Origin: a virus
Virus record (IMG/VR): IMGVR_UViG_3300042261_000976
Coordinates: 4,627 to 68,626 of that record
DNA length: 64,000 nucleotides
Direction: 5' to 3' (one strand)
Numbering within the stretch: position 1 is the stretch's first letter; the number at the start of each line of letters is the position of its first letter. Under the pieces are notes generated by a model that saw only the letters and a list, made by a program, of their open reading frames with translations, did not search any database and was not told where the DNA came from. The position numbers were made by a program, and so were the translations under genes. Below, piece by piece: positions 1,647-57,900 of the stretch.

Positions 1647-2291
1647 ATGAAGACATTCTCTAATATAATTAAAGAAGCTAAATATTTTGAAGGAACACAA
1701 ATAGTTCAAATGACAAAAGAGCTATGTGCTAAATATTTGAACGATATTAAAGAACTTAATATAAGAGAAAGAGAATTAAACGAATATGAATGGCATTTAT
1801 GGTCAGATAAAGATATAATGATGGATCTTCCTATGAAATGGGAAATGAGTTATTTAATATTACTTGGGGATAAATTTATAGGATCACAAATCAATACTCA
1901 AAAAGAAACAAAAGATGGAGAAAAATTCATTCATACTAATAGAGTTATAATAGATAAAGATTATAGAAATTTTAAATTGTTATGGGAACTTTATCAGAAA
2001 TTATATGATAATTGTAAAAAACATGGTTTTAAATATTGCACTTGTTTCACACCATCCTTCAAAGTAAAAGAATTAAATACAAATATTCTTGGAATGGAAT
2101 TAATTAAAAACGGTGATATAGTAAGCCATTTCATAACATCTATAAAATGGCTATCAATGGATAATGATGGTAAACTTCATTACGAAGACGGTGATATGGG
2201 ATGGTATTTCATGATAAAAACCTTTCATGGAAATTTTCCAAAATTAGAAAAATCAAAAAAGACATTCATAGATAAGTCCCCATATTTATAA
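1647..2291 (+). CDS. hypothetical protein with CTS-like N-terminus MKTFSNIIKE
   Basis: ATG ORF preceded by TTAATATATAAAAATAT motif. Confidence 0.5.
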   Translation: MKTFSNIIKEAKYFEGTQIVQMTKELCAKYLNDIKELNIRERELNEYEWHLWSDKDIMMDLPMKWEMSYLILLGDKFIGSQINTQKETKDGEKFIHTNRVIIDKDYRNFKLLWELYQKLYDNCKKHGFKYCTCFTPSFKVKELNTNILGMELIKNGDIVSHFITSIKWLSMDNDGKLHYEDGDMGWYFMIKTFHGNFPKLEKSKKTFIDKSPYL

Positions 2292-3911
2292 TTACTTTAG
2301 ATATTTAATCGCATCTAAAAAATATTTAGGCATCATCTTCCTATTGTATCTTAATATATCATCAAAAGAACTATCTAATATAAAAGTGTGACTCCAGTCA
2401 GTATCACTTCTGGTAGATCTACCATACGCTTGAACTATATCTACAATAGTTCTCCAAGCATACCAATCCTTTTTTGATTTCTGTCTAGCTTTAACCTTAT
2501 TACTCGAAATGTTTGGATAAGGAACTTTCAACAATATCTGAAATCTACTTAAATCATCATCCATAGAAATTCCAGAAACCATTGATGGTGAAACTATTAC
2601 ACCATTCTTTTTCTTCTTCATTTTATCAAGTTGTTTCTCTCTATCTTCTGTTTCGTGGAATATAAGACGTTTATCGTCTATTGCATTTTCTAACCATTTA
2701 GCAATTTCATAATTGGTTGTATGTATGATTCCTCTATTATCTTTATATTTTGCTAATATTTTATTTATTACTTTTAATTGTTCTTTGAAGGTAGCTTCCT
2801 TTTTTTCATAAGTCATTTTCCCAGCTTGGTAATAATATAAAGGGCGATTTTTGACAGGAAATGTAGAATCTACTTCAAAATAGTCAGTTAAATCTTCATC
2901 AAATCCATTAAGATAAGAAAATATATTTTTGTCTAAAATAGAACCACTCATAAATATCACATGGTCATATTTGCTCCAAATAAAATCATCAAGATAAACA
3001 TGTCCCCATATTGGTTGTAAATTAAGTTCTATTTCATTCAGTTTGCTCTTTGTAATATCAAGAGTCCAATTATATTCATTCTTTTCAAAATCTTTTAATA
3101 ATCCTTCGAAATTCTTTTCTGCACTATCAATATTAACAATATAATTAGCGTGAGCGGCTTTTAATTTTTCATTTGGAACATCAGAAAGAGTATCTATGAA
3201 ATGTTGTTTTAATTCTGCCAGATACGGTATGAAATCTCTTTCTAAGAAACTTATAAATCCACCCGGAGTTTTTATTCCAGCAAACTTACGAATATACGAA
3301 TCAACCACTTGATCTTCAACTCCATATAGTTTTAGAGCTCTTGGGCTTAATTTTACTGAAATAAAATCGCAGAAAACAGATTCAAAGTCGTGAGCTTCAT
3401 CCACTATTAAAACGTTAGCAGATCTTTTTTGCATTGTTTCTGGAACGAAAAATGCAAAGCTATTGAATAGATGGAAATTTGTTAAAGACATTGTTCCTTC
3501 TGTCCAAGCTTCTTTTGCTGCGTCATATTGACAACTGGCGCATGGCATAAGTTTAGATGCTCTATTTAATTCTTTACCTGTATGACAATCCGTTTTGTGT
3601 CTAATACACTTATAATTAGATTGTCCTCTAAGGTCGTTTATGGAGTCGAATTCCTTTTTATATTGTTGTTGTAGTATTTTGCTATTAGTAATAATATCAA
3701 ATTTTGCTGATGTGTTTATGTAATTTTTATACCAATTCATAAACATCATAGCAAAATAGGATTTTCCAGAACCTGTTGGGGCATTCAATAAAATGAATTT
3801 CTTACCATTATTTATTGAATGTTTAGTGAGATTGAATATCTCAATTTGTTGTTCTCTTGGTTTATATTTTAATGGAAAATATATCTTTAATTCATCGTCT
3901 ATAGAAATCAT
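2292..3911 (-). CDS. DinG/XPD (Rad3)-family ATP-dependent DNA helicase with FeS cluster
   Basis: PREQQ, APTGSGKS Walker A, DEAH box, 4-Cys cluster CIRHKTDCH..CASC, C-terminal AYGRSTRSDTD motif. Confidence 0.8.
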   Translation of the reverse strand: MISIDDELKIYFPLKYKPREQQIEIFNLTKHSINNGKKFILLNAPTGSGKSYFAMMFMNWYKNYINTSAKFDIITNSKILQQQYKKEFDSINDLRGQSNYKCIRHKTDCHTGKELNRASKLMPCASCQYDAAKEAWTEGTMSLTNFHLFNSFAFFVPETMQKRSANVLIVDEAHDFESVFCDFISVKLSPRALKLYGVEDQVVDSYIRKFAGIKTPGGFISFLERDFIPYLAELKQHFIDTLSDVPNEKLKAAHANYIVNIDSAEKNFEGLLKDFEKNEYNWTLDITKSKLNEIELNLQPIWGHVYLDDFIWSKYDHVIFMSGSILDKNIFSYLNGFDEDLTDYFEVDSTFPVKNRPLYYYQAGKMTYEKKEATFKEQLKVINKILAKYKDNRGIIHTTNYEIAKWLENAIDDKRLIFHETEDREKQLDKMKKKKNGVIVSPSMVSGISMDDDLSRFQILLKVPYPNISSNKVKARQKSKKDWYAWRTIVDIVQAYGRSTRSDTDWSHTFILDSSFDDILRYNRKMMPKYFLDAIKYLK

Positions 3912-3961
3912 AAACCATATATTAAGAAAAAGAAATAATGTTTTAGTAAAAAATTTAAAAC

Positions 3962-3988
3962 AAAAAACCCAGTTTTCACTGGGTTTTA
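3962..3988 (-). terminator. intrinsic terminator hairpin (cccagt-tttc-actggg) flanked by A-run/T-run
   Basis: perfect 6-bp stem plus T-run on minus strand immediately 3' of gene 3994..4227. Confidence 0.5.
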
Positions 3989-3993
3989 GTTTC

Positions 3994-4334: not shown

Positions 4335-4499
4335 ATGATCAAGAAATATAATGATTTTATAAACGTTTCAATAAACGAACAATATTATGATTACAGTCAG
4401 GATAGAAAATTCAAAGTGCCCGTTAGATTAAATAATGATGATGAACCATATCGAATAGTAGCAAGACAATTAGACGATTTACAAAGAGCCGAAATATGA
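4335..4499 (+). CDS. small ORF (54 aa) MIKKYNDFINVS..., CTS-like leader
   Basis: ATG ORF below track cutoff; ATGA overlap with next gene; promoter motif upstream. Confidence 0.3.
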   Translation: MIKKYNDFINVSINEQYYDYSQDRKFKVPVRLNNDDEPYRIVARQLDDLQRAEI

Positions 4500-4780
4500 G
4501 TAAAAACGATAAAATAATAAAAAAATTTAGTATCTTTGAGAATAAAATCTTTGGATTTAAATCTTTAGATTATGTTGATAGTTTTGCAGAACTCTTTACC
4601 GTTATATCTGAAATGAAAAGAAAAAAGATAATAGACGGTGAAGGGAATTTATTAATTGATCCATATGAAATAGGGCATAAAGTTCCAGGGTTTGATGATT
4701 TATTCGAAGAGACAGAAGATTATTTTGCAACTTTAGCTATAGTTAAAGATATACTAGATAAGTATTATAAAGTTATATGA
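4496..4780 (+). CDS. hypothetical protein
   Basis: track ORF, ATGA-coupled to neighbours. Confidence 0.45.
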   Translation: MSKNDKIIKKFSIFENKIFGFKSLDYVDSFAELFTVISEMKRKKIIDGEGNLLIDPYEIGHKVPGFDDLFEETEDYFATLAIVKDILDKYYKVI

Positions 4781-5358
4781 TAAAGACATTTGAAGAATAT
4801 GATTACGTTCACGATAATAGTTTAGTTTGGGTAGTTGGAATCCCAAGCGGTGAGGCTTTACAAATACCACACGAGAACCTAAATCCTCTTTACGCTGAAA
4901 AATTAATATGGTACGATAATAAATATACTGGCGTTGGATTCTACGCCTTTAATGATGACGACATTTCCTTAGTTAAAAGATATATATCCCCTCCTAAAAA
5001 ATCTAAAGATTTAAAAGTTGTTCCACCAAAAATGAAAACAACTAATGGTCCTGATATAATGATATATAATCATCATTTTGATGATGCTTTGATAGATACA
5101 ATTGTTGGTATTATGCACGATTATCCAACAGAAATAGAACTTTATGTCCAAGACGAATGTATGGGCATAACATATGGTGATTATTATATCGAAATAGATT
5201 TAGAAGAAGGAAGAAGCCCTAGATATAGATTGGTAAAAAGACGTAATCTTTCATTCTCTTCTATAGGAATGGGAACAGGTTCCGATATTCTAGACAAATA
5301 CGGAGTATCTACTGATAGACAATTAATAGATAGAATAGAAACGGAATTATACACTTAA
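4777..5358 (+). CDS. hypothetical protein, N-term MIKTFEEYDY
   Basis: track ORF; CTS-like leader. Confidence 0.5.
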   Translation: MIKTFEEYDYVHDNSLVWVVGIPSGEALQIPHENLNPLYAEKLIWYDNKYTGVGFYAFNDDDISLVKRYISPPKKSKDLKVVPPKMKTTNGPDIMIYNHHFDDALIDTIVGIMHDYPTEIELYVQDECMGITYGDYYIEIDLEEGRSPRYRLVKRRNLSFSSIGMGTGSDILDKYGVSTDRQLIDRIETELYT

Positions 5359-6581: not shown

Positions 6582-7007
6582 CTAATATTTTTTAACATGG
6601 TGTGGATCAGCTGCTAATATTCCACCACCATCATCAAATCTTATTCTATATTTACCATCTTCTCTTATTGATAAAAATATTCCAGTTTCTCCGTCATGGT
6701 GATTACCTGGATTTTCATACATGATTTTATCTCCATTATTAAATTCAATTTCTGTTTGATGTCTTTGACGTAATCTACGTTGGAATTCATCATCCTCTTC
6801 TCTTCTCCTTTTTCTCCTATCTTCGTCATCTTGTTCCCTTCTTCTTCTTTGTTGTTCAAACCCGTTTGGATTTATTGGATTAAGAGGACTCATTGGATTT
6901 GACGGATTTATAGGATTTAGCGGGCTTATAGGATTCATTGGATTAAGAGGATTGGAAGGATCCATAAAATTCCATTCTTCAAATGTTCTTAAATTATTCA
7001 TGTTCAT
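6582..7007 (-). CDS. hypothetical protein with NPxSPLNP tandem repeats and R/E-rich segment
   Basis: N-term MNMNNLRTFEEWNFMDP; repeats at nt ~6860-6960. Confidence 0.5.
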   Translation of the reverse strand: MNMNNLRTFEEWNFMDPSNPLNPMNPISPLNPINPSNPMSPLNPINPNGFEQQRRRREQDDEDRRKRRREEDDEFQRRLRQRHQTEIEFNNGDKIMYENPGNHHDGETGIFLSIREDGKYRIRFDDGGGILAADPHHVKKY

Positions 7008-7015
7008 ATTTTTTT

Positions 7016-7630
7016 TTAAAATGCTGGGGCTGCTTGAGATCCTCCTGCTGGTTGTGGAAACGCTGGTGCTTGTTGTGCTGGTGGTATCGCTTGAGCGGGT
7101 GGTGGCATTCCTCCTTGTGCTGGTGGCATTCCTCCTTGTGCTGGTGGCATTCCACCGGGAGCGCCTGGTTGTTGTGGTTGTTGTGCTTCCTTTTCTTTAG
7201 GAGTTTCTATTTTATTTTCATCTGGATTTTCTTTTGTGTTATCGTCTGTTTCTGAAATCTTTTGAATAATAAAATCTTCTTTTATATCATCAATCTTAAC
7301 TTGTTTATCATTGGTTAATTGCAAAGTCCATACTGGTTGACCGCCGTTTGGTTCATCTATTTTAGAAGGATCGTATTTCTTTATAATGACATCACAGTTT
7401 TCTAAATCTTCTACTGAGAATCTAATTATCATTTGGAAATAAAATTCGGCGTCAGCAAAATTTGTTATAATAGATCTTTTAGAAGCTGGTGAACTTACGA
7501 CTTGATCAACTGGAGCAGAGCTCATTGAGAAAGAACCGTTTTGAAACCAGTATGTAATTCTTTCTTTCACTTTCTTGATTATTTGATCTAACTCATAATC
7601 TGCTTGCATGAACTCCTCGAACATTTTCAT
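7016..7630 (-). CDS. hypothetical protein with C-terminal (GGMPPAQ)x3 P/Q-rich tail
   Basis: N-term MKMFEEFMQ; 21-nt tandem repeats at ~7080-7150. Confidence 0.5.
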   Translation of the reverse strand: MKMFEEFMQADYELDQIIKKVKERITYWFQNGSFSMSSAPVDQVVSSPASKRSIITNFADAEFYFQMIIRFSVEDLENCDVIIKKYDPSKIDEPNGGQPVWTLQLTNDKQVKIDDIKEDFIIQKISETDDNTKENPDENKIETPKEKEAQQPQQPGAPGGMPPAQGGMPPAQGGMPPPAQAIPPAQQAPAFPQPAGGSQAAPAF

Positions 7631-7984: not shown

Positions 7985-8296
7985 ATGAAAAAAGTAATAA
8001 CATTTAGTGAATATCTTATCTTAGAACAAGACGGTGGCGGAGGAGTTGGATTCGCTACACCAAATGCCGGTGGTATGGGAAATGTTGTTGCTCCTACAGT
8101 TGGGTCTGTACCAGGATCTACTTGGGGAAATGGTTCGGGAATGAAAGGAAGCGGTGATTCTTCTGCTTATGATACTGGTAAAAAATTTGGAATGAAAGTT
8201 CAGAAAGAAAAAAAACAAAAAAAAGTAAAAAAAACCAAAAAAAAAACTAAGGAGGAAGCTCCAAGATATTTTACGAAAGAATACATGCGTTTATGA
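7985..8296 (+). CDS. Gly-rich / Lys-rich small protein
   Basis: MKKVITFSEYLILEQDGGGG..; K-rich tail encoded by A-homopolymer runs. Confidence 0.45.
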   Translation: MKKVITFSEYLILEQDGGGGVGFATPNAGGMGNVVAPTVGSVPGSTWGNGSGMKGSGDSSAYDTGKKFGMKVQKEKKQKKVKKTKKKTKEEAPRYFTKEYMRL

Positions 8297-9066
8297 AGTT
8301 AAAAAGATTTAACGAAAACTGGGAAGGTGATCTTCAGGATAGGTTATCTAACCTTGAAAGTTATTATAAACAACAGGAAGAAGAAGAAAATCTTCCTGTT
8401 GAGAATTTTCAAATGTTTCCTAAAGAACCCCTCAGAGATGCTATAAAGAGAGCCAAGACATTGGCTATGAAAAAGGGTATAGTTGTAAAATTCAATTGTA
8501 ATGGAATTCCTATATCAGTAAATAAATCTTCCGATTCAAATAAAATAGAAGATGATTTCGTTGAAAAATATAATAATAAATATCCAAAATATAAAAAACC
8601 AAAAAAAGCACAAGAAAAAATATTCAAAGTTGAAAAAGACTCTGAATTTCGAAACGTAACACAAAAAGCTATAAATTATGCTAAAGAGAATGATATAGTG
8701 GTTTACGTTACATTTAACGGTATTAAAAAAGAAGTAAATAAAGATACAAACTTATTAGATTTGGAAAATGATTTTATTCTAGATATAGGAAGAAATCAAC
8801 TTTCACACATTCCAAATCCATTTAAGAGTAAAGTTGAATTTAATACAACACTACACGATGTTGTAGGTTTGCCTAGTGGTCAAATTTTATACATGACAAC
8901 AGAACAAATAACATGGATGAAAGCACGAAATTATGTTACTTTTAAAACTACCTGGAAGAGACCTATAAGCGGTGGCGGAATAAAGCCTGTAGAATTAAAT
9001 AAATACGTTTTTGAAGACGCTAAATATACAGAAATAATAGAAAAACTCGATATAATATGGCATTAA
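8293..9066 (+). CDS. hypothetical protein
   Basis: ATGA overlap with upstream gene. Confidence 0.5.
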   Translation: MKLKRFNENWEGDLQDRLSNLESYYKQQEEEENLPVENFQMFPKEPLRDAIKRAKTLAMKKGIVVKFNCNGIPISVNKSSDSNKIEDDFVEKYNNKYPKYKKPKKAQEKIFKVEKDSEFRNVTQKAINYAKENDIVVYVTFNGIKKEVNKDTNLLDLENDFILDIGRNQLSHIPNPFKSKVEFNTTLHDVVGLPSGQILYMTTEQITWMKARNYVTFKTTWKRPISGGGIKPVELNKYVFEDAKYTEIIEKLDIIWH

Positions 9067-11169: not shown

Positions 11170-12918
11170 ATGTTTAATATTTTAACCTTTAATGAATTAT
11201 TAGAACAACAAAACATAGGTAGTTATAAAATACCAATGCCTGTAGTATATCCAAGTACAAATTATGCTGGAAAATGGACAGAACAGAATTATGATGATAT
11301 AGTTGGGCAATTAGTATCTTTTGACGGTCAAGAAAAAGAAATTCAAGATATTTATTCAGATAATGGAGAAATATTTTTTGTAGATAAAGACACTAATGTA
11401 TTTGACGTGAAAGGTAAATCAGTTGAAATAAAAAATAGAGTTCCTAGAGTTTATAATAAATTAGATCCTTACGGTGAAGAAGTATGGGAAGCATATCATA
11501 AATCACAAGGAAAATTAAACGGTAAATACATAAGATTTATTTTTGATATAGAAGACGAAAATAATAGGATAGCAGTTAGAAAAAATGTTCCTTATGAAAT
11601 ATCTTATTTCAATGGTGTTGATTATGTAATTAGAGCTGAACATGGAAATTTTGAAGTAGATCCTTTCTATGTTGAAGGTGAAGATTTTTTAGTAGTGACT
11701 CAAAAGGAACTTGATGAAAGAAGAAAATTGTGGGCGGAAAAACATCCATATGATCCTTATGGAGAAGAAATATGGGAAGGTATGAAAAATTATACAGAAT
11801 TTGTAAACGAAGCTAGAGCTTATCATATAAAGAAAGAAGATTACGTTCAATGTGGTGGAAATTTTGGATGTTATACAGTTGGTGGTAAAACTATAAAAGC
11901 AATGGTTCTTTGTAAAGGTAAATATGCCAAAGTATTAAATTCCAGATATAAAATGGATAATCACTATGAATTCGAGTTGGAATTCGAAGAACCTGTAGAT
12001 ACAAAGGACGAGAATAAACAAAAAATAAAAATTAAAACTTTTTATATAAATCAGAATCAGGTTGCAAATTTAAGAATTATAAAGAATAAAGATTTTTTAA
12101 GATGGAAAGCTGGATTCACTTTACCATATAAGGCGACATCAACATTTGATAAATGTATTAATAGATATGGTATGCAATTTCCTTATAAATATTATGATGT
12201 ATCTTATTTTGATGTGGACGCCGAAAAAAATGATATTGTATCTTTCTTACCAGCAAATAAGTCTAATCTAGTTGTAGATGAGAACGGCAACAATTTACCA
12301 GGAGAAAACGCTTATACTTCTAAATTTAGACAAAGTACTAAAGTTGGTAGAGTTATTAGAAAGTTGAATGATCAATTAACAGATCAACAAATTGAAGAGT
12401 TTACAACTAAATATAAAGCTAATTGGAATTATTGGAATAAAACTGGAGCAACATTTATTGATGTTGTTACAGGAGATAAAATAGCATATTGGTATGACTC
12501 AACAAGATATGCTCCTGGAAATGGAACATTAAATAATTCTTGTATGAGAGATCCAAGTAAATCTTATAGAATACAAGATTTCTATGGAAAATATCCAGAT
12601 AAGATTGCACTTTGTATTCTAGTGGATGTAGAATCTCAAATGCTTCTAGGTAGAGCATTAATATGGAAATTGGATAAACCTGAGGGTGTTATATTTATGG
12701 ATAGAATTTATTATATAAAACCAGAACACGAAAAATTAATTGAGGATTACGCTAAGAAACAAGGCATGCAAACAAAATTATCCAATTATCACTTAAACAA
12801 TAGAATTGAAGTGCATATTGATTATAAACCAGGTACACGTAATGGAAGCAGTATAAGTTTACCGTATTTGGATACTTTCCAATATGATAGTAATAAAAAG
12901 AAGTTTATAAATAAATGA
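11170..12918 (+). CDS. paralog family member 1 (C-terminal GGG[TS]LNNSCMR domain), carries 2x DPYGEE-W
   Basis: start moved to ATG 11170 (MFNILTFNELLEQ) after promoter motif; C-terminal ~230 aa shared with 14059..15219 and 15274..16455. Confidence 0.6.
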   Translation: MFNILTFNELLEQQNIGSYKIPMPVVYPSTNYAGKWTEQNYDDIVGQLVSFDGQEKEIQDIYSDNGEIFFVDKDTNVFDVKGKSVEIKNRVPRVYNKLDPYGEEVWEAYHKSQGKLNGKYIRFIFDIEDENNRIAVRKNVPYEISYFNGVDYVIRAEHGNFEVDPFYVEGEDFLVVTQKELDERRKLWAEKHPYDPYGEEIWEGMKNYTEFVNEARAYHIKKEDYVQCGGNFGCYTVGGKTIKAMVLCKGKYAKVLNSRYKMDNHYEFELEFEEPVDTKDENKQKIKIKTFYINQNQVANLRIIKNKDFLRWKAGFTLPYKATSTFDKCINRYGMQFPYKYYDVSYFDVDAEKNDIVSFLPANKSNLVVDENGNNLPGENAYTSKFRQSTKVGRVIRKLNDQLTDQQIEEFTTKYKANWNYWNKTGATFIDVVTGDKIAYWYDSTRYAPGNGTLNNSCMRDPSKSYRIQDFYGKYPDKIALCILVDVESQMLLGRALIWKLDKPEGVIFMDRIYYIKPEHEKLIEDYAKKQGMQTKLSNYHLNNRIEVHIDYKPGTRNGSSISLPYLDTFQYDSNKKKFINK

Positions 12919-23277: not shown

Positions 23278-23310
23278 AAAAAAGAGGGACTTAAGTCCCT
23301 CTTTTTTTTA
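23278..23310 (+). terminator. intrinsic terminator hairpin agagggac-ttaa-gtccctct + T8
   Basis: perfect palindrome immediately after dnaK stop; also serves the convergent minus gene. Confidence 0.55.
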
Positions 23311-44508: not shown

Positions 44509-45051
44509 ATGGTAAGAACTTTTGAAGAATATAGATATATTAATTTCGGAATGTTTGATGGTGCTGGTAGTAAAAAAGATCCCAACGAACCATTTTTTCT
44601 TGCAAAAAAACATAAATATTTTCAAGATCAAAGAGATGAAGCAAGAAGACAAGAAAGAGAAGCAAGAAGACAACGAGATGATATTAACTATATCAATGGT
44701 CTGGAAGCGTCTAGAAACCAACTACCTTTAATAAATAGGTGTATAGATATAATAGAAAAAGATCCAGATTCTATTGTTAGAACTAAATATGAAGAATCAG
44801 ATTATGGTAGTGGAATATATGGAATTCTTTTAAAAAATAAAACAGTAATAGTAACTAGAATAGACGGGAGCGATAGAGTCTCTTACTTGAAAATAAATAA
44901 AGTACTAATGTCAAGCACTAAAGAAAAGAAAATAAATAAAGACGTTGATGTGTATGGTGAAGAAAATTGGGAAGACGATAATATAACACCGTATGAAAAA
45001 TTATCACGTTTAGTTAAAGATTACGTCGAACAAAATGAAATTATATTCTAA
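44509..45051 (+). CDS. hypothetical protein with DVYGEENW variant motif
   Basis: MVRTFEEYRY leader; ATGA-coupled to next gene. Confidence 0.5.
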   Translation: MVRTFEEYRYINFGMFDGAGSKKDPNEPFFLAKKHKYFQDQRDEARRQEREARRQRDDINYINGLEASRNQLPLINRCIDIIEKDPDSIVRTKYEESDYGSGIYGILLKNKTVIVTRIDGSDRVSYLKINKVLMSSTKEKKINKDVDVYGEENWEDDNITPYEKLSRLVKDYVEQNEIIF

Positions 45052-53166: not shown

Positions 53167-53625
53167 ATGAATAACTTAATAAACTTTGAACAATATAACG
53201 AAGGTATAGTATCGTCATTAAATAAGAGATTTAATAAAAATCAAAATGACGAAACCATAGAATCTTATCTAAAAGATATTAAAAGAAATTTTTATGATCA
53301 TAAATTGTTCTATGGTAATCAATGGAACAGCGATAAGTTAATTATAACACCTGGAAACGAACAGATTCTATGGTTTTCTTATATTCTTGATACAAATATG
53401 ATAAACTTTGGAAAGTTACATCAAAAGAAAAAAATCGATATTTCATTCGATAGAAGATTAAATAAGTATATGATATTCTTAGACGGTAGCGATATAACAA
53501 AAGGTACAAATCAATATGTAATTAAAGATGTTTTTGATTTCTTTTGGTCAAGATATTTTCCAAAAGAAAAATTACCAAAAGTATCCAGTAATCCTGCGAT
53601 TGAATGGAATACCCCACCTAGATAA
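53167..53625 (+). CDS. hypothetical protein MNNLINFEQYNEG
   Basis: track ORF. Confidence 0.45.
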   Translation: MNNLINFEQYNEGIVSSLNKRFNKNQNDETIESYLKDIKRNFYDHKLFYGNQWNSDKLIITPGNEQILWFSYILDTNMINFGKLHQKKKIDISFDRRLNKYMIFLDGSDITKGTNQYVIKDVFDFFWSRYFPKEKLPKVSSNPAIEWNTPPR

Positions 53626-53740: not shown

Positions 53741-54112
53741 TCATTTTCTTATTTCTTTATGAAAAGGATCGTGATATTTTTCTATCATTAATTTTCTTGT
53801 TTTCATTGAGGGATCTTTTTCGTAAATTGGAATATCTTCGTATTTTAATGGAACGCTTTCTTCAATTTGATCAGGATGACGATTCACATTAACATAAACA
53901 TTACTTATTGGATTTACAATCTGTTTATTGTTCATAATATATCTAAAGTCATAAAGACTATTGGTATGCCAATCAATGCATTCATCCGCTAATTTGTTTT
54001 GATATTTTGAAAGATCTTCAATTGGAATTTCTTCAGGACATATAGTACCACTGTGAGGTATGATCACAAGAACATCACTTAGTAATTCATATTTTTTAAA
54101 GTCCTTTATCAC
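53741..54112 (-). CDS. hypothetical protein MIKDFKKYELL
   Basis: track ORF. Confidence 0.4.
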   Translation of the reverse strand: MIKDFKKYELLSDVLVIIPHSGTICPEEIPIEDLSKYQNKLADECIDWHTNSLYDFRYIMNNKQIVNPISNVYVNVNRHPDQIEESVPLKYEDIPIYEKDPSMKTRKLMIEKYHDPFHKEIRK

Positions 54113-54356
54113 CTTTCTTTAGTTTTTTATTAATTTTATGTCTAACATAATGTTTTACATATTTGTATATTTCTCTTAGATGTGTGAGATCAACTCCGTA
54201 GTTGGTGAATAAATAACCAATCATGAAATCTACTATATGCTCTTCGTTAGCGTGTTTATGTATAGCATTTAAGTATTTTTTAGCTTCTTCAAAGGCTATA
54301 TCCATTTTAGATTTATTCAAGAGTCTCTCGTTTACAAATTGATCATATTTTTTCAT
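54096..54356 (-). CDS. hypothetical small protein MKKYDQFVNE
   Basis: track ORF. Confidence 0.4.
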   Translation of the reverse strand: MKKYDQFVNERLLNKSKMDIAFEEAKKYLNAIHKHANEEHIVDFMIGYLFTNYGVDLTHLREIYKYVKHYVRHKINKKLKKGDKGL

Positions 54357-54700
54357 AATTTTATAGTTATTTCATTATCTCCTATTATAATTGGGTATCT
54401 AGTATCCAGTGTATAATAATCATCTCTATCATTACCCATAACAATATATCCATCTTCATCTAAATATATATTATTTACAGTTTCACCAATTACTTTTTTA
54501 TATTTATAAGAAACATACATTGAACTTGAAATAAATAAAATGAAATTAAATTTTATGACTTTATTTAAAATCAACTCTTTTAATTTTTCTATTTTTTCAT
54601 CAATTTCCATTTCAGACAAATCATATTCAGTATTCCAATTCTCTTCACCGTATGGATCTATATCTATTGATTCTAATATGTATTCTTTGAATCTTTTCAT
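54353..54700 (-). CDS. hypothetical protein MKRFKEYILESIDIDPYGEENW..
   Basis: leader + motif at N-terminus. Confidence 0.45.
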   Translation of the reverse strand: MKRFKEYILESIDIDPYGEENWNTEYDLSEMEIDEKIEKLKELILNKVIKFNFILFISSSMYVSYKYKKVIGETVNNIYLDEDGYIVMGNDRDDYYTLDTRYPIIIGDNEITIKL

Positions 54701-55031: not shown

Positions 55032-55847
55032 TTATATTTTTATTTTTTTCTTAGTTTTTCTAGACGTATCGAAAACATAATATTCTATTGGTTCGTCTAA
55101 AGATTTTTCTCCGCTTAAAAATTCTATTACATCATCTACTGTTCTTTTTCTATCATCTGAGAATCCAACTTTCGCTGGAAGACCTAATTTTTTGCTTGAT
55201 TTTCTTATTTTATTTATGAATCTTTTTATCACCAAAGATTTTCCATATCCTACTAATTGACTTATTTTCATTTCTGGAACTTCAAAAGTTTTTTTGAAAT
55301 AACTACTCATAACTCCAACATAATCACATCTATCCAAATAATGTTCTATTATATTTTCTGGCTCCTCATCGAACAATTTATGAAAACGTTTGAGATTTTT
55401 TTGCATTTCTATTTTTTGTTCCTTTGAAAGATAATTCTCTATTATCCACTCCACGGCTTTTCTTATAGATTCTGGTTCGTGTCCTCTTGCAGTTATAATT
55501 AAAAATATTCTTCCATCAATCAATGAATAAATAAAGTCATCCCAAGATGGACCAAAGTCACCTAATCTTATAGCTTTTTTAGTATCTAATAGAAAAGCTT
55601 TTGGTCCTCTCGGTCCAAGATCCATTTGCTCTTCAAAAGTTTCATTGTAATTATTATTTCTCATTCTAGTCTTATTGGTAGCTATAACTTCATGAAATTC
55701 TGAAGCTGGAACATCAATAGGCACCCATTCGTCTCTTACTAATTTATCTAGATGAACTATTGAAGGCATATAGAGTAAATTGTCGTCCCAGTCGAAAATA
55801 CTATAAGATAATGTTTTAGGATTATATTCATTATATTTCTTTATCAT
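55032..55847 (-). CDS. HAD-superfamily phosphatase-like protein
   Basis: IFDWDDNLL (DxDx motif I), ITARG (motif II), later K and DD motifs. Confidence 0.4.
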   Translation of the reverse strand: MIKKYNEYNPKTLSYSIFDWDDNLLYMPSIVHLDKLVRDEWVPIDVPASEFHEVIATNKTRMRNNNYNETFEEQMDLGPRGPKAFLLDTKKAIRLGDFGPSWDDFIYSLIDGRIFLIITARGHEPESIRKAVEWIIENYLSKEQKIEMQKNLKRFHKLFDEEPENIIEHYLDRCDYVGVMSSYFKKTFEVPEMKISQLVGYGKSLVIKRFINKIRKSSKKLGLPAKVGFSDDRKRTVDDVIEFLSGEKSLDEPIEYYVFDTSRKTKKKIKI

Positions 55848-55949: not shown

Positions 55950-56846
55950 ATGATACTTGATAAATTTGTAAAAATAAAGATTCATTCTACGAACTATAAG
56001 TGGTACATGGAAAAGGGATATGGCCCTTTTCATAAAAAGGACATTATAGATGTTGATATAAAAGATTTGATTAAAAGTAGTACTGTAAAGATAAATTCAA
56101 AATGTGATATTTGTGGAGAAAAAAAATACTTAAAATATTATATTTATGTTAAGAGTATTAAAAACAAGGGAATTTATACATGTTCTAAATGTAAGACATA
56201 TAAATCTGAAATAACAAACATGGAAAAATATGGATGTAAGTATGTATTACAATCTAAAGAAATTAAAGATAAATCTAAAAACACGTGTATAAAAAAATAT
56301 GGAGTGGATAATATATCTAAAGTATCTTTTATTAGAGATGACAGAAGAAATAATTTTAAAAATGATAATTTTAAAAATAAAAGTAAAGAAACTTGGATAA
56401 ATAAATATGGGTTTGATAATCCATCGAAATCTAATATTATTAAAAATAAAAAGATAGAGACCACATTAAAACATTATGGTGTCGAAAATCCTACACAATC
56501 GTATGAATTATTTGAAAAATCCCAAATAACAGGCAAAAGAATAAGAGTCCACGAACAAACTGGATTAAAATATAGAGGAACTTATGAAAAAGATTTCCTC
56601 GATTATTGTTTTAAAAACAATATAGAAGTGGAAAAGGGCCCAACTATAGTTTATTATTATAAAAATAAAAAAAGATATTACCATTCTGATTTTTTCATAT
56701 CAAATAAGAATTTAATATGTGAAATTAAATCTGATTATTATCTAAATAAATATAAAGATATTAATGAATCCAAAAAAGAATATACTATTAAGAATGGTTA
56801 TGATTTTATCTTCGTGATTAATAAAGATTATTCGAAAATCCTTTAA
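55950..56846 (+). CDS. putative nuclease: N-terminal zinc ribbon, KYG[VF]xN repeats, C-terminal PD-(D/E)xK-like motif (homing-endonuclease-like)
   Basis: CDICGEKK..CSKC; 4x K[YH]G[VFC].N repeats; HSDFFIS..LICEIKSDYY. Confidence 0.45.
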   Translation: MILDKFVKIKIHSTNYKWYMEKGYGPFHKKDIIDVDIKDLIKSSTVKINSKCDICGEKKYLKYYIYVKSIKNKGIYTCSKCKTYKSEITNMEKYGCKYVLQSKEIKDKSKNTCIKKYGVDNISKVSFIRDDRRNNFKNDNFKNKSKETWINKYGFDNPSKSNIIKNKKIETTLKHYGVENPTQSYELFEKSQITGKRIRVHEQTGLKYRGTYEKDFLDYCFKNNIEVEKGPTIVYYYKNKKRYYHSDFFISNKNLICEIKSDYYLNKYKDINESKKEYTIKNGYDFIFVINKDYSKIL

Positions 56847-57208
56847 TCATACCATCTAACTCCTTCATTTAATGCTACTCTAAATAAATCAGCAATTAAA
56901 CATTCTAGATGACAATTATATCTTGTTTTTGTTCCTCCTTCTGGTGTATTATAAAAATAATATCTTGCTTGATCTTCAAGTAAATCGAATATTTTTTTAT
57001 AAACTTCTCTGAACGTTTTTGTATATTCATCATTAGTATATTCATTCAATTTTTTGAATTTATATTCATTAAAAACTTTCAGAATAACTTGTTTTTCTTT
57101 TTCTTCATCTTCTGGACGTAGTTCTAAACCAAACTCATTTTTACTTCTTTCAATATTAGAGTTTATTATATCAAGCAAACTATTATATTTTTTATATTCC
57201 TTAATCAT
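56843..57208 (-). CDS. hypothetical protein MIKEYKKYNS
   Basis: track ORF. Confidence 0.4.
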   Translation of the reverse strand: MIKEYKKYNSLLDIINSNIERSKNEFGLELRPEDEEKEKQVILKVFNEYKFKKLNEYTNDEYTKTFREVYKKIFDLLEDQARYYFYNTPEGGTKTRYNCHLECLIADLFRVALNEGVRWYD

Positions 57209-57518
57209 AACTTATTTCAGTCCATTCTTCTTCGCCATATGGATCTATATCCATATGTTCTATATAATCTTTTTCTCTTATTTTCTCCATTTTTTTTAAG
57301 AAATCTGGGTCTGCTGGAATGAATCTACTCAAGAACCATCCTTCATCACCATCTACTGCACACATCGTATCAGTGCCATCGAACCAAACTCCAGTCAATG
57401 TATAGACTTTATCTTTGACCAGAGCTCCATTAGGTTTAACACAAATAACTTTATCCCCGGCACGAAGATTTAGAAGATTTCTATTTTCATTTATATATGT
57501 TAAATAATTTTTAATCAT
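57201..57518 (-). CDS. hypothetical protein MIKNYLTYINENR.. ending MDIDPYGEEEWTEISYD
   Basis: start moved to internal ATG 57518 (CTS-like leader, removes overlap); track start 57554. Confidence 0.4.
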   Translation of the reverse strand: MIKNYLTYINENRNLLNLRAGDKVICVKPNGALVKDKVYTLTGVWFDGTDTMCAVDGDEGWFLSRFIPADPDFLKKMEKIREKDYIEHMDIDPYGEEEWTEISYD

Positions 57519-57900
57519 TATTCCAGTCCTCCTCACCGTATGGATCAGCTTCAAGATTGACTATTGGATTTCTCTCTTGTAATATTACAATTTTATCTTC
57601 TGGTCCTGGTGCTATTTTATATGAATTTATATTATTAGGATCTTCGGCAAAATACAAATACCAAGTATTATTATTTCTTATATCACTTGTTGTCAAAACA
57701 ACATCTATTCTTCTAACATTAATTGTATATACACGTTTATTATCATAATATAAATATATTCTTATTCTTTTCCCCATGTATTTTTCACGAAGAAAAACTA
57801 AAATTAATTTGGCATCTATTTTCTCAAATCCTCCATTTTTTTCTATTATCTCAGCAACTGTTGTTGGATCTATTTCTTCATATTTTTCCTTAAATTTCAT
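57511..57900 (-). CDS. hypothetical protein ending ..EADPYGEEDWNND
   Basis: C-terminal motif. Confidence 0.45.
   Translation of the reverse strand: MKFKEKYEEIDPTTVAEIIEKNGGFEKIDAKLILVFLREKYMGKRIRIYLYYDNKRVYTINVRRIDVVLTTSDIRNNNTWYLYFAEDPNNINSYKIAPGPEDKIVILQERNPIVNLEADPYGEEDWNND

What the first reader, a model, noticed from the sequence alone, without database searches (positions are those of the whole stretch)
1647..57900. About 30 genes begin with a T4 capsid-targeting-sequence-like leader M-x-K-x-[FY]-x-E-[FY]..(I/L)xE
**Leaders seen (coordinate is the start codon; minus-strand genes are given by their high coordinate).**

- MIKKFNEFINE (40205)
- MIKTFEEYDY (4777)
- MVRTFEEYRY (44509)
- MNNLRAFEEF (44226)
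- MKRFKEYILES (54700)
- MIKKYNEYNP (55847)
- MIKEYKKYNS (57208)
- MIKNYLTYINE (57518)
- MIKDFKKYELL (54112)
- MKKYDQFVNE (54356)
- MKMFEEFMQ (7630)
- MKTFSNIIKEA (1647)
- MIKKYNDFINV (4335)
- MLRFSEFTNN (41110)
- MITKFEQYTSE (43412)
- MFNILTFNELLE (11170)
- MFLDYSNFINEA (15219)
- MIYGFNDLLNEV (16455)
- MNNLINFEQY (53167)
- MNIQKFKIFEQ (19679)
- MNNLKYYDDYLNE (20853)
- MKLKRFNENWE (8293)
- MNMNNLRTFEEW (7007)

**T4 parallel.** This closely resembles the phage T4 internal-protein capsid-targeting sequence (MKTYQEFIAE), which directs the internal proteins IPI-III and Alt into the prohead. It is removed by the prohead protease at (I/L)-x-E. Many of the leaders here end with I/L-x-E (FINE, ILES, LLNE, IIKE).

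**Interpretation.** Together with the T4-type RNase H and other T4-like genes, this suggests a very large repertoire of capsid-packaged, host-ejected proteins. These would be candidate anti-defence or host-takeover effectors, far more than the handful in T4.

**Caveat.** K, N, I, F, Y and E are all AT-rich codons, so part of the pattern could be compositional.
Basis: partly seen in the sequence, partly recalled or inferred. Interest (0 to 1): 0.85.

Follow-up and report, generated by a model that had tools for sequence, protein, structure and literature searches.

The report
T4-like capsid-targeting leaders, massively expanded
In this piece of a huge uncultivated phage, a fifth to a third of the genes start with a short tag that closely matches the signal phage T4 uses to load proteins into its head, so the phage may inject a very large protein cargo along with its DNA.

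Summary
All 23 quoted leaders are at the stated start codons, and I found about 12 more.

**Statistics**
- An aromatic-x-x-aromatic motif lies in the first 15 residues of 36 of 88 genes.
- Shuffles of the same N-termini give 13.
- A matrix built from the leaders scores ≥6 in 19/89 N-termini, against 0.25% of internal windows.
- Two AT-rich control phages give 0/65 and 0/43.
- The carrier proteins are otherwise unrelated to each other.

**Source.** The window comes from a relative of the 735-kb 'Mahaphage' LR756501.

**T4 parallel**
- The matrix ranks T4's three internal proteins in the top 5 of 222 T4 N-termini.
- The conserved positions match the T4 residues that experiments tie to targeting (Y4, F7) and to processing (I8, E10).

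**Head genes in relatives**
- Relatives carry T4-type portal, gp21-like protease and gp23-like capsid genes in T4 order.
- The protease is fused to a scaffold holding about 14 tandem YSEYIAE repeats. The T4 signal core is YQEFIAE.

**Limits**
- Packaging and cleavage are inferred, not shown.
- The protease gene of the window's own genome was not found.
- Some carriers in the relative are housekeeping-type enzymes.

**Side finding.** An invariant DPYGEExW peptide co-occurs with the leaders.

The parts
40161..40205 (-). leader MIKKFNEFINE (140-aa protein); INE at residues 9-11
   Evidence: leave-one-out matrix score 12.5; ortholog in LR756501 keeps ..KFDQF-NE
   Evidence: score 11.1
4335..4379 (+). 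leader MIKKYNDFINVSINE (54 aa)
   Evidence: score 10.3
54312..54356 (-). leader MKKYDQFVNE (86 aa); closest to the T4 signal MKTYQEFIAE
   Evidence: score 10.1
43412..43456 (+). leader (GTG start) MITKFEQYTSE (268 aa)
   Evidence: score 9.8; ortholog ITKFNNYLKE
4777..4821 (+). leader MIKTFEEYDY (193 aa; also has the GIPSGE domain)
   Evidence: score 9.5; ortholog MIKTFEAFE
54656..54700 (-). leader MKRFKEYILES followed by DPYGEENW (115 aa)
   Evidence: score 9.3
   Evidence: score 8.6
44226..44270 (+). leader MNNLRAFEEF followed by DPYGEEKW (90 aa)
   Evidence: score 7.6
55803..55847 (-). leader MIKKYNEYNP (271 aa)
   Evidence: score 7.5; ortholog MIKKYEDYS
57474..57518 (-). leader MIKNYLTYINE (105 aa; DPYGEEEW near the C-terminus)
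   Evidence: score 7.3
53167..53211 (+). leader MNNLINFEQY (152 aa)
   Evidence: score 7.2
   Evidence: score 7.0
54068..54112 (-). leader (GTG start) MIKDFKKYELL ahead of an N-formylglutamate amidohydrolase-like domain that starts at residue 13
   Evidence: score 6.9; Pfam FGase residues 13-122 match profile positions 2-119
   Evidence: score 6.9; ortholog ..LNEFVNE
41066..41110 (-). leader MLRFSEFTNN (301 aa)
   Evidence: score 6.8
20809..20853 (-). leader MNNLKYYDDYLNE (201 aa; DPYGEE near the C-terminus)
   Evidence: score 6.6
1647..1691 (+). leader MKTFSNIIKE (214 aa); second aromatic replaced by I
   Evidence: score 6.6
   Evidence: score 6.0; identical in the ortholog
7586..7630 (-). 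leader MKMFEEFMQ (204 aa)
   Evidence: score 5.8; identical in the ortholog
19635..19679 (-). leader MNIQKFKIFEQ followed by DPYGEEDW (113 aa)
   Evidence: score 5.7; ortholog IKKYKIFET..DPYGEEIW
   Evidence: score 5.4; ortholog ..ITFTEYLNE
57164..57208 (-). leader MIKEYKKYNS (121 aa)
   Evidence: score 5.1
15175..15219 (-). leader MFLDYSNFINEA (386 aa)
   Evidence: score 4.8; tblastn match in LR756501 reads MKYLEFINEAK
   Evidence: score 4.6; Pfam; ortholog keeps YIRKYSQINEE
44509..44553 (+). leader MVRTFEEYRY (180 aa)
   Evidence: score 4.5
   Evidence: score 4.2
   Evidence: score 4.1; ortholog VIKSFKLFE
16411..16455 (-). weak leader MIYGFNDLLNE (393 aa; similar to the product of 14059-15219, both matching one LR756501 region)
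   Evidence: score 3.8
   Evidence: score 3.5; ortholog ..ITPFEEFKKILE
11170..11214 (+). weak leader MFNILTFNELLE (582 aa; two internal DPYGEE motifs)
   Evidence: score 3.1
8293..8337 (+). weak leader MKLKRFNENWE (257 aa)
   Evidence: score 2.7
   Evidence: score 2.6
   Evidence: score 1.7, but conserved in the ortholog as MAEYILSYEKFM..ELNE; Pfam
6963..7007 (-). leader MNMNNLRTFEEW (141 aa)
   Evidence: verified; matrix score is low (1.1) because W is rare at the second aromatic position in the training set

Best explanation
**What it is.** The leaders are T4-type capsid-targeting and propeptide tags, greatly expanded in number. The window belongs to a huge Bacteroidota-type phage of the Mahaphage clade. 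The head genes of its relatives are T4-like.

**Proposed mechanism.**
1. Each leader is a 10-15-residue N-terminal add-on with consensus [I/L/M]-K-[K/T]-[F/Y]-x-[E/D/Q]-[F/Y]-[I/L/V]-N-E. It probably forms a short amphipathic helix with the hydrophobic and aromatic residues on one face.
2. The two aromatic residues dock the protein onto the scaffold core of the assembling prohead.
3. In relatives that core is made by a gp21-like protease fused to a coiled-coil scaffold. The scaffold carries about 14 tandem 14-residue repeats, each holding the heptad Y-S-E-Y-I-A-E.
4. A leader would therefore behave like one scaffold repeat unit and co-assemble with the repeat array.
5. After the shell closes, the protease would cut after [I/L/V]-x-E, both in the scaffold repeats and, where the site exists, in the leaders. 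The mature proteins would stay in the head and be delivered with the DNA.

**Shown.**
- The motif is real, N-terminal, selected at the protein level and specific to this lineage.
- It sits on unrelated proteins, as an extension in front of complete domains.
- It matches the T4 signal at the functionally mapped positions.
- The T4-type protease-scaffold, portal and capsid genes exist in relatives.

**Inferred.**
- Docking to the scaffold, cleavage, packaging and ejection.
- That the window's own genome has the same head module.
For: 1. **Statistics and controls:**
2. **Not paralogy:** with the first 22 residues removed, the 36 window carriers form 36 BLAST clusters, and the 124 carriers in LR756501 form 106.
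3. **The leader is an add-on.** Pfam domains begin after it:
   - the FGase-like domain at residue 13;
   - the CoaE domain at residue 14 and the GluRS catalytic domain at residue 27.
4. **Protein-level selection:**
   - orthologs keep the aromatic positions in 24 of 30 cases, with F/Y swaps;
   - synonymous codon use is ordinary;
   - there is no leader-specific upstream DNA motif.
5. **T4 ranking:** the matrix trained only on this window ranks ipI 2nd and ipIII and ipII 4th and 5th of 222 T4 N-termini.
6. **Functional positions:** in T4 IPIII, targeting depends on residues 4 and 7 (Y, F) and processing on residues 8 and 10 (I, E) (PMC9026906). These are the positions conserved here.
7. **Cleavage-type site:** [ILVM]xE in the T4 register follows 22% of N-terminal aromatic pairs, against 3-4% of internal ones. 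The residue after E is A, S or G in 32 of 57 cases.
8. **Head module in relatives:**
   - Portal_T4, E = 1e-69, and Gp23, E = 2e-25.
   - The protein between them aligns to T4 gp21 and keeps GE(F/L)DHP and SSR(A/G) at His85 and Ser140.
   - A profile of its N-terminal domain has PDB 5JBL (T4 prohead protease) as its only significant match, E = 1.8e-4.
   - Many of its more than 5000 homologs carry precomputed PF03420 hits.
9. **Scaffold repeats:**
   - 14 strict [FYW]xx[FYW][ILVM]xE heptads at exact 14-residue spacing in LR756501.
   - Median 14 per protein in 120 homologs. The commonest heptads are YSEYIAE and YSEYLAE.
10. **Clade-wide occurrence:** leader rates are 12.5% in LR756501, 9% in LR756502, 10% in LR756500 and 19% in 615 kb of IMG/VR fragments.
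11. **Clustering and turnover:** leader genes are adjacent more often than expected (43 pairs against 15.5). Many are absent from the nearest relative, as with T-even internal-protein loci.
Against: - There is no proteomic or experimental evidence. The phage is uncultivated.
- The window contains no protease, scaffold or capsid gene. The protease-scaffold genes I traced come from other samples.
- About half of the leaders have no [ILVM]xE nearby.
- The scale is unprecedented: at least 124 proteins, 12% of the relative's proteome.
- In the relative, carriers include a tRNA synthetase, CoaE, a dCMP deaminase and a CCA/poly(A) polymerase. Their packaging would be surprising.
- T4 gp61.1 and 57B score like the internal proteins but, to my knowledge, are not known head proteins. 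The motif alone may therefore not be sufficient.
- T4's own scaffold gp22 has only one comparable heptad. The idea that the leader mimics a scaffold repeat is therefore not established, even for T4.
- Leaders are no more conserved overall than the protein bodies (61% against 58% identity).
Confidence: 0.6

Rival explanations
1. The leader is a real sorting or docking tag, but for a destination other than the capsid interior. Candidates are another phage-built assembly or a hub protein. The window itself encodes a major-vault-protein-like shell protein, an Hsp70 with a DnaJ-like partner, and an M16 processing-type peptidase. The resemblance to the T4 signal would then be convergence on a short amphipathic aromatic helix.
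For: - Carriers include cytoplasmic-type enzymes: GluRS, CoaE and a dCMP deaminase.
- About half of the leaders lack a cleavage-type site.
- A second invariant motif, DPYGEExW, co-occurs with the leaders (odds ratio 5.1). It has no T4 counterpart and is absent from the stretches of LR756502 and LR756500 examined (100 kb and 50 kb), which still have leaders.
- The window encodes MVP-like, Hsp70 and DnaJ-like proteins and an M16 peptidase.
Against: - The only protein in the relative's proteome that is a strong outlier for the same heptad is the prohead protease-scaffold. It holds 14 of the 64 internal matches.
- The match to the T4 signal extends to the processing positions, not only to the amphipathic pattern.
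- No evidence links the MVP-like protein or Hsp70 to the motif.
Confidence: 0.2
2. The leader is a propeptide recognised and removed by the gp21-like protease. Its purpose would be timed activation or destruction of the carrier late in infection, without stable packaging or ejection.
For: - Cleavage-type [ILV]xE sites are enriched right after the aromatic pair.
- The protease is present in relatives.
- Many carriers are enzymes or unknown proteins with no obvious role inside a virion.
Against: - In T4, gp21 acts inside the prohead on core-associated proteins (PMC5694885). Substrate capture and packaging are therefore coupled there.
- The most conserved residues are the two aromatics. These are the targeting determinants in T4, not the cleavage residues.
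Confidence: 0.1
3. The pattern is a by-product of AT-rich composition, or of selection for unstructured A/T-rich 5' coding ends. The latter could be needed for translation initiation in a host that lacks Shine-Dalgarno sites.
For: - Codons 2-12 are more AT-rich than gene bodies (21-27% against 29.5% GC).
- Shine-Dalgarno motifs are nearly absent, and an A-rich tract lies at -20 to -10 of all genes.
- K, N, I, F and Y are encoded by all-A/T codons.
Against: - Shuffling the same N-terminal residues destroys the pattern.
- Spurious ATG-ORFs from the same DNA score 3/135.
- Bacillus phage G (same GC) scores 0/65 and Bacteroides phage crAss001 (same host phylum) scores 0/43.
- W (TGG) and E are favoured at fixed positions, and F/Y swap between orthologs.
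- The motif's distance from the start codon varies between 2 and 11 residues.
Confidence: 0.04
4. The shared N-termini reflect common descent of one large gene family, or a mobile 5' cassette (promoter plus first codons) spread by recombination. Such cassettes have been proposed for hyperplastic regions of T4-like phages.
For: - Leader genes cluster (43 adjacent pairs against 15.5 expected).
- Many are missing from the closest relative.
- Two sharp sub-classes exist, MIK[KT][FY].. and MNN[LI]xx[FY]...
Against: - The bodies are unrelated: 36 clusters from 36 proteins, and 106 from 124.
- There is no leader-specific upstream nucleotide conservation, and intergenic distances equal those of other genes.
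- Synonymous sites vary.
- Leaders sit in front of domains of clearly different origin: GluRS, CoaE and FGase.
Confidence: 0.03

Closest known systems
Phage T4 capsid-targeting sequence (CTS) of internal proteins IPI, IPII and IPIII (MKTFKEF.. and MKTYQEFIAE), removed by the prohead protease gp21
   Same: - N-terminal, about 10 residues long, and placed on otherwise unrelated proteins.
- Two aromatic residues three positions apart, followed by I/L/V-x-E.
- These are the positions shown by genetics to carry targeting (4, 7) and processing (8, 10) (PMC9026906).
- The window's matrix picks the T4 internal proteins out of 222 T4 N-termini.
- Relatives carry gp20-, gp21- and gp23-type genes in T4 order.
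   Different: - The number of carriers. At the same threshold there are 19-36 in 64 kb here and at least 124 in the 735-kb relative, against 6 of 222 in T4 (its three known internal proteins plus three other hits).
- The residue before E is usually N rather than A.
- The distance from Met varies, and an MNN[LI]xx[FY] sub-class exists.
- Many leaders lack the cleavage site.
- Carriers include enzyme families never reported as T4 head contents.
- Packaging is untested.
Hypervariable internal-protein loci of T-even phages (diverse anti-restriction proteins sharing only the CTS)
   Same: - Leader-bearing genes cluster.
- They are mostly small proteins with no recognisable domain.
- They turn over between close relatives: many window carriers have no counterpart in LR756501. 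Compare PMC3012670.
   Different: - Here the carriers are spread over the whole genome of the relative, at 10-36% of genes per 50-kb bin, not confined to one or two loci.
- No anti-defence activity is known for any of them.
Propeptides of inner-body and ejection proteins of phiKZ-like giant phages (phiKZ, 201phi2-1, SPN3US), cut by a diverged gp21 homolog
   Same: - Many different head-internal proteins: about 50 head proteins and more than 40 MDa of ejection proteins in SPN3US (PMC7411985 abstract).
- Cleavage after Glu by a gp21-family protease.
- Propeptides are inferred to target proteins into the prohead (PMC5694885).
   Different: - Most of those propeptides are long (79 to more than 100 residues in SPN3US) and lack a shared short consensus.
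- As I recall, their cleavage logo is S/A/G-x-E, not I/L/V-x-E.
- Here the tag is short, stereotyped and T4-like.
Protease-scaffold fusion proteins of other capsids (herpesvirus assemblin-scaffold, phage lambda C/Nu3); cited from general knowledge
   Same: A head maturation protease and a scaffold encoded in one polypeptide between the portal and capsid genes.
   Different: The scaffold part here is a regular array of about 14 fourteen-residue repeats. Each holds a CTS-like heptad that ends in a cleavage-type I-A-E. I know of no described counterpart.
Cargo-loading peptides of encapsulins and encapsulation peptides of bacterial microcompartments; cited from general knowledge
   Same: Short terminal peptides that recruit unrelated cargo enzymes into a protein shell. 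This is an analogy of logic only.
   Different: The shells, motifs and typical placement differ, and there is no homology. This comparison is relevant mainly to the rival reading and to the DPYGEExW motif.

Membership tests
T4-type capsid-targeting sequence (CTS) | A short (10-19 residue) peptide at the extreme N-terminus, directly after Met | tested here: met
   The first aromatic lies at residues 4-9 in 32 of the 36 carriers. Matrix hits occur in 21% of N-termini against 0.25% of internal windows.
T4-type capsid-targeting sequence (CTS) | Aromatic or hydrophobic residues at the positions equivalent to IPIII Tyr4 and Phe7 (the targeting determinants) | tested here: met
   [FYW]xx[FYW] occurs in 36/88 genes against 13.4 in shuffles. 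Orthologs keep these positions aromatic in 24 of 30 cases. The functional mapping in T4 is from PMC9026906.
T4-type capsid-targeting sequence (CTS) | A processing site with I/L at P3 and Glu at P1, at the positions equivalent to IPIII Ile8 and Glu10 | tested here: inconclusive
   The site is in the exact register in 22% of N-terminal aromatic pairs (3-4% at internal pairs). One lies within 11 residues in 43-58% (11-14% internal). About half of the leaders have none.
T4-type capsid-targeting sequence (CTS) | The tag is shared by proteins that are otherwise unrelated, and is dispensable for their folds | tested here: met
   Body-only BLAST gives 36 clusters from 36 proteins and 106 from 124. Pfam domains start after the leader, at residue 13 (FGase), 14 (CoaE) and 27 (GluRS).
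T4-type capsid-targeting sequence (CTS) | The same genome encodes a gp21-family prohead protease and a scaffold core | tested here: inconclusive
   Met in the relatives LR756501 and LR756500, and in more than 5000 metagenomic homologs. Not found in the window, and the window's own genome could not be traced beyond a 25-kb contig.
T4-type capsid-targeting sequence (CTS) | The tagged protein is incorporated into proheads, processed, and delivered on infection | not testable with these tools
   This needs virion proteomics or a packaging assay. The phage is uncultivated.
gp21 / Peptidase S77 prohead protease (for the relatives' 800-aa protein) | Sequence membership, conserved catalytic His and Ser, and position between the portal and the major capsid gene | tested here: met
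   - Pfam PF03420, E = 6.7e-5. This is 22.9 bits, below the curated 27-bit cut-off.
- A profile of 12 N-terminal domains has PDB 5JBL, 'Prohead core protein protease', as its only significant match, E = 1.8e-4.
- GEFDHP is present in 116/120 homologs and VSSRAAG in 119/120. They align to T4 His85 and Ser140.
- The gene order portal-protease-Gp23 is seen, and protease-Gp23.
phiKZ-type inner-body propeptides | Mostly long propeptides (79 to over 100 residues in SPN3US; one of 20) with an S/A/G-x-E cleavage logo and no shared short consensus | tested here: not met
   The leaders are 10-15 residues long, stereotyped, and end in I/L/V-x-E. The description of the phiKZ and SPN3US propeptides is from PMC5694885, and the cleavage logo is from memory.
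Sec / lipoprotein signal peptides | A positively charged N-region followed by an uninterrupted hydrophobic core of about 10-15 residues | tested here: not met
   The sequences show this directly. Acidic and polar residues interrupt the leader (..F-N-E-F-I-N-E..) and no hydrophobic stretch follows. No signal-peptide predictor was run.

The most novel reading that the evidence does not exclude
A whole clade of huge, uncultivated, Bacteroidota-infecting phages uses a T4-like capsid-targeting tag on more than 100 unrelated proteins. That is 12-20% of the proteome, and it includes a tRNA synthetase and nucleotide and cofactor enzymes. The virion would then deliver a pre-made takeover proteome together with the DNA. 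The tag would work by mimicking one unit of a 14-fold YSEYIAE repeat array in a protease-scaffold fusion protein, which would also explain where the T4 signal came from. A second, invariant peptide, DPYGEExW, would be a further sorting or processing signal of the same system.
Probability: 0.35. Interest if true: 0.9.

Novelty: new variant of a known kind. Interest (0 to 1): 0.8.

Why it matters
**If the tags work as in T4.** These phages, the largest known, would package an order of magnitude more kinds of protein than any characterised phage. That would change how the first minutes of infection by huge phages are understood. It would also give a simple sequence rule for predicting virion-delivered effectors, such as anti-defence and host-takeover proteins, directly from metagenomes. 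More than 5000 homologs of the protease-scaffold exist in public data.

**The scaffold link.** The similarity between the tag and the tandem YSEYIAE repeats of the scaffold suggests a concrete, testable mechanism and origin for the T4 capsid-targeting sequence. How that sequence binds the core has not been explained.

**Practical use.** A family of natural tag variants could extend protein-packaging tools based on T4.

**If packaging is wrong.** A stereotyped N-terminal tag on 12-20% of a proteome, together with an invariant DPYGEExW peptide on about 10% of it, would still point to an unknown intracellular sorting or processing system in phage-infected cells.

Tried and rejected
**Explanations tested and rejected**
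- Composition. Rejected by shuffles of the N-termini, internal windows, spurious ATG-ORFs, internal Met contexts and two AT-rich control phages.
- A nucleotide-level signal. Synonymous codon use is ordinary, and there is no leader-specific upstream motif or spacing.
- Paralogy. Body-only BLAST clustering shows unrelated proteins.
- Stronger conservation of the leader than of the body. Not found: 61% against 58-63% identity. Only the aromatic positions stand out.

**Searches that gave little or nothing**
- Pfam on 20 leader-bearing window proteins gave only one secure domain, FGase.
- A single-sequence search of the protease-scaffold against PDB sequences found only a designed helical bundle. 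A profile of the N-terminal domain was needed to reach T4 gp21.
- T4 gp22, gp67 and gp68 were checked for the aromatic heptad. Only one was found, YINYVQRE in gp22, so the scaffold-mimic idea cannot be read off T4 itself.
- No paper was found on CTS-like tags in Mahaphages or other metagenomic huge phages, or on DPYGEE in phages.

**Attempts that failed**
- Tracing the window's own protease gene through five close homologs. All come from other samples.
- Fetching the prototype crAssphage by two accession numbers. Phage crAss001 was used instead.

Full report
**1. What the window is**

The 64-kb window has 29% GC and no tRNA genes. It almost entirely lacks Shine-Dalgarno motifs in front of its genes. 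All genes instead have an A-rich tract at -20 to -10.

Its closest public relative is LR756501, an uncultured phage of 735,411 bp.
- DNA identity is 78% over the conserved parts.
- Protein identity is 83% for a major-vault-protein-like gene, 84% for Hsp70 and 76% for the RNase H-like gene.
- More distant relatives are LR756502, LR756504 and LR745206 (634-642 kb) and LR756500 (462 kb).
- A 735-kb genome and genomes of 634, 636 and 642 kb are the four largest complete genomes of Al-Shayeb et al. 2020. That paper states that all of its largest genomes fall in the 'Mahaphage' clade and are predicted to replicate in Bacteroidetes (PMC7162821). The sizes match these records.
- A T9SS-type Por_Secre_tail domain in the window agrees with that host prediction.

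The window corresponds roughly to LR756501 positions -13 kb to +50 kb. I could trace it only to a 25-kb Logan contig from run SRR35144456.

**2.

All 23 quoted N-termini are present as written. All belong to ORFs selected by a codon-usage gene caller that ignores the motif.

Counts in the first 15 residues of 88 genes:
- [FYW]xx[FYW] occurs in 36. Shuffles of those same N-terminal residues give 13.4±2.9, and internal windows predict 10.
- With [EDQN] before the second aromatic the count is 23, against 4.6.
- With [ILVM]xE appended it is 8, against 0.1.

Anchoring on the first aromatic gives this consensus:

| Position | -3 | -2 | -1 | 0 | +1 | +2 | +3 | +4 | +5 | +6 |
|---|---|---|---|---|---|---|---|---|---|---|
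| Residue | I/L (or the initiator Met) | K | K/T | F/Y | E/N | E/D/Q | Y/F | I/L/N | N | E |

There are two sharp sub-classes, MIK[KT][FY].. and MNN[LI]xx[FY]...

A 10-position matrix, scored leave-one-out, gives ≥6 in:
- 19/89 N-termini;
- 0.25% of internal windows;
- 3/135 spurious ATG-ORFs of the same DNA, and 3/370 internal Met contexts.

The statement 'about 30 genes' is fair.

**3. It is not composition, not a DNA signal, and not paralogy**

- The shuffles keep the N-terminal composition, so residue order matters.
- Bacillus phage G (29.8% GC) gives 0/65. Bacteroides phage crAss001 gives 0/43. At the LR756501 rate these would have given about 8 and 5 hits.
- Synonymous codon choice in leaders matches gene bodies.
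- Upstream DNA and intergenic spacing do not differ from other genes.
- Orthologs swap F and Y but keep the aromatic positions in 24 of 30 cases.
- With the first 22 residues removed, the 36 window carriers form 36 BLAST clusters. The 124 carriers in LR756501 form 106.
- The leader sits in front of complete, unrelated domains:
  - an FGase-like domain starting at residue 13;
  - a dephospho-CoA kinase domain starting at residue 14;
  - a GluRS catalytic domain starting at residue 27.

The leader is therefore a modular, protein-level tag.

**4. It is a property of the clade**

With the same gene caller and matrix:

| Sequence | N-termini scoring ≥6 |
|---|---|
| LR756501, whole genome | 124/994 |
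| LR756502, 100 kb | 13/140 |
| LR756500, 50 kb | 4/40 |
| 615 kb of IMG/VR fragments (selected by the DPYGEExW motif, section 8) | 173/895 |

- In LR756501 the leader genes cluster, with 43 adjacent pairs against 15.5 expected.
- They are present in every 50-kb bin, at 10-36% of genes.
- Most have no Pfam domain.

**5. The T4 parallel is quantitative**

The matrix was trained only on this window. It ranks 222 T4 N-termini as follows (coordinates checked against the T4 annotation):
1. gp61.1 (MKTFKEFIKED)
2. ipI (MKTFKEFTST)
3. soc
4. ipIII (MKTYQEFIAEA)
5. ipII (MKTYQEFIAEA)
6. 57B

The leaders of Alt, gp24, gp22, gp67 and gp68 score low.

A review of the Mullaney and Black experiments states three things (PMC9026906):
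- Targeting by the IPIII signal depends mainly on residues 4 and 7.
- Processing depends on residues 8 and 10.
- Asp at position 10 blocks processing but not targeting.

In MKTYQEFIAE these residues are Y4, F7, I8 and E10. They correspond to positions 0, +3, +4 and +6 of the consensus found here.

On the cleavage-type site:
- [ILVM]xE in that exact register follows 22% of the N-terminal aromatic pairs, against 3-4% of internal ones.
- One lies within 11 residues in 43-58%, against 11-14%.
- The residue after the Glu is A, S or G in 32 of 57 cases.

T-even internal proteins are described as diverse defence proteins that share only this signal (PMC3012670).

**6. A T4-type head module with an unusual scaffold exists in the relatives**

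In LR756501 three consecutive genes, at 71,969, 73,913 and 76,415, are the following:
- a Portal_T4 protein (E = 1e-69);
- an 807-residue protein whose N-terminal 180 residues resemble gp21;
- a Gp23-type capsid protein (E = 2e-25).

Evidence that the 807-residue protein is a gp21-family protease:
- Pfam Peptidase_S77 scores 22.9 bits, below the curated cut-off of 27.
- The alignment keeps GE(L/F)(N/D)HP and (V/I)SSR(G/A) at T4 His85 and Ser140. It also keeps cleavage-type sites at LLIE / LIVE and ITES / INES.
- A profile of 12 N-terminal domains has PDB 5JBL, 'Prohead core protein protease', as its only significant match, E = 1.8e-4.
- Many of its more than 5000 homologs carry precomputed PF03420 hits. 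Their contigs reach 736 kb.
- The same gene order is seen in LR756500 and in contigs from several other samples.

The C-terminal 600 residues are scaffold-like:
- They contain 14 matches to [FYW]xx[FYW][ILVM]xE, most at exact 14-residue spacing. That is 14 of the 64 internal matches in a 994-gene proteome.
- In the best 120 homologs the median is 14 heptads per protein, and a spacing of 14 residues occurs 1259 times.
- The commonest heptads are YSEYIAE (361 times) and YSEYLAE (208 times).
- The T4 signal core is YQEFIAE.
- Each repeat ends in a gp21-type I-A-E site.

Four tandem paralogs of about 350 residues lie just upstream of the portal. Three of them have N-termini reading ..YKNFVNEA..FNGYVYES and ..YNGFLFEA. 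They are candidates for abundant internal proteins.

**7. Mechanism proposed, and its limits**

The best-supported reading is that the leader docks its protein onto the repeat array of the protease-scaffold inside the assembling prohead. It would behave like one scaffold repeat. It would then be cut after [I/L/V]-x-E where that site exists, leaving the protein in the head for delivery with the DNA.

Mass is not an obstacle:
- The 124 carriers of LR756501 total 30,132 residues.
- That is about 3.3 MDa per single copy of each (my arithmetic).
- The 240-kb phage SPN3US carries more than 40 MDa of ejection proteins (PMC7411985 abstract).

What weakens the reading:
- There are no experimental data.
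- The window's own head genes have not been seen.
- About half of the leaders have no cleavage-type site.
- The carriers include GluRS, CoaE, a dCMP deaminase and a CCA/poly(A) polymerase.
- T4 gp61.1 and 57B have look-alike N-termini, but I do not know of a head role for either.
- T4 gp22 carries only one comparable heptad.

I put 0.6 on capsid targeting for a substantial share of the leaders.
- 0.2 goes to a tag for another destination or hub.
- 0.1 goes to protease-controlled activation or turnover without packaging.
- A few per cent each go to composition and to paralogy or a mobile cassette.

**8. A second motif**

The peptide D-P-Y-G-E-E-x-W occurs as follows:
- 14 times in 13 window proteins, and 109 times in 94 LR756501 proteins.
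- W follows at +7 in 116.
- All synonymous Pro and Gly codons are used, so selection acts on the peptide.
- Position varies. In LR756501, 20 lie right after the leader, 42 within 15 residues of the C-terminus, and the rest are internal.
- It is strongly associated with leader-bearing proteins (odds ratio 5.1, p = 3e-10).
- It is absent from the LR756502 and LR756500 stretches examined, and from T4, phage G and crAss001.

It is present on many large IMG/VR contigs from about a dozen metagenomes. I found no mention of it in phage literature. Its role is unknown.

**9. Comparison and novelty**

In sequence logic the leaders match the T4 capsid-targeting sequence.
- The defining sequence features were tested and met. 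The exception is the processing site, which only a subset carries.
- The genome-context feature is met in relatives only.
- The functional feature cannot be tested here.

They differ from the phiKZ-type propeptides, most of which are long and non-stereotyped (PMC5694885).

I found no report of such tags in Mahaphages or other metagenomic huge phages.

I classify this as a new variant of a known kind. It is a known targeting signal, expanded from a handful of carriers to 12-20% of a proteome, and tied to a previously undescribed repeat scaffold.

Noticed in passing
window proteins starting at 11170 (two copies), 25491, 44226, 54700, 19828, 19330, 57900, 39786, 24999, 20853, 57518, 39326 and 19679; also 94 proteins of LR756501: An invariant peptide, D-P-Y-G-E-E-x-W, recurs in about 10-15% of the proteins. 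It lies right after the N-terminal leader, internally, or at the extreme C-terminus. Synonymous codons vary, so selection is on the peptide. It is associated with leader-bearing proteins (odds ratio 5.1). It is absent from the LR756502 and LR756500 stretches examined, and it occurs on many large IMG/VR contigs. Its function is unknown.
   Followed up: partly
LR756501 73913-76336 (L004:23913-26336, + strand) and more than 5000 homologs (P0001-P0120 examined): A gp21-like prohead protease is fused to a scaffold holding about 14 tandem 14-residue repeats. The repeat consensus is D-x-S-I-x-Y-S-E-Y-I-A-E-N-L, and each repeat ends in a cleavage-type I-A-E. The feature is conserved across the family.
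   Followed up: yes
window 30785-33202 (-): An 805-aa protein has major-vault-protein domains: MVP_shoulder (E = 1.6e-27) and Vault_3 (E = 2.4e-12). It is 83% identical in LR756501. A vault-shell-like protein in a phage is unusual.
   Followed up: no
window 49379-52312 (+): A 977-aa hybrid histidine kinase with PAS domains, HisKA, HATPase and receiver domains is encoded by the phage.
   Followed up: no
window 21466-23277 (+) and 23308-24999 (-): A full-length Hsp70/DnaK (E = 1.6e-235) lies next to a 563-aa protein with DnaJ-type zinc-finger repeats. The second protein has a leader-like N-terminus and an internal DPYGEESW.
   Followed up: no
window 60556-61074 (-), 62150-63259 (-), 59389-59808 (-) and 58959-59378 (+): Precomputed Pfam hits on the matching Logan contig show four things: a translation initiation factor IF3, a Peptidase_M16 (processing-peptidase family), a T9SS Por_Secre_tail domain (consistent with a Bacteroidota host), and a 139-aa protein with a Portal_T4 fragment hit next to the RNase H-like gene.
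   Followed up: no
window 4777-5358, 8293-9066, 25083-25277 and 25289-25483: A recurring G-[I/L/F]-P-S-G-[E/Q] segment is shared by several otherwise different small proteins. It also occurs in LR756501 proteins.
   Followed up: no
T4 NC_000866 18966-19130 (gene 61.1) and 73952-74410 (gene 57B): T4 gp61.1 (MKTFKEFIKED, 54 aa) scores higher than the known internal proteins with the window's leader matrix. 57B (MMEFKDFSTG), which lies next to ipI, scores like them. They may be unrecognised carriers of the capsid-targeting signal.
   Followed up: no
LR756501 133267-134895 (L005:33267-34895) and 603708-604325 (L015:3708-4325): A glutamyl/glutaminyl-tRNA synthetase and a dephospho-CoA kinase each carry a leader as an N-terminal extension, of 26 and 13 residues, before the conserved domain.
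   Followed up: partly
LR756501 701026 (-), 611493 (-) and 624410 (-): Similarity to the T4 large terminase gp17 is spread over three separate ORFs far apart in the genome. They could be a split gene, paralogs, or interrupted by mobile elements.
   Followed up: no
LR756501 61904-66166 (four genes starting at 61904, 62965, 64066 and 65144): Four tandem paralogs of about 350 aa lie just upstream of the portal gene. Three of their N-termini read ..YKNFVNEA..FNGYVYES and ..YNGFLFEA, and two score ≥6 with the leader matrix. They are candidates for abundant internal head proteins.
   Followed up: no
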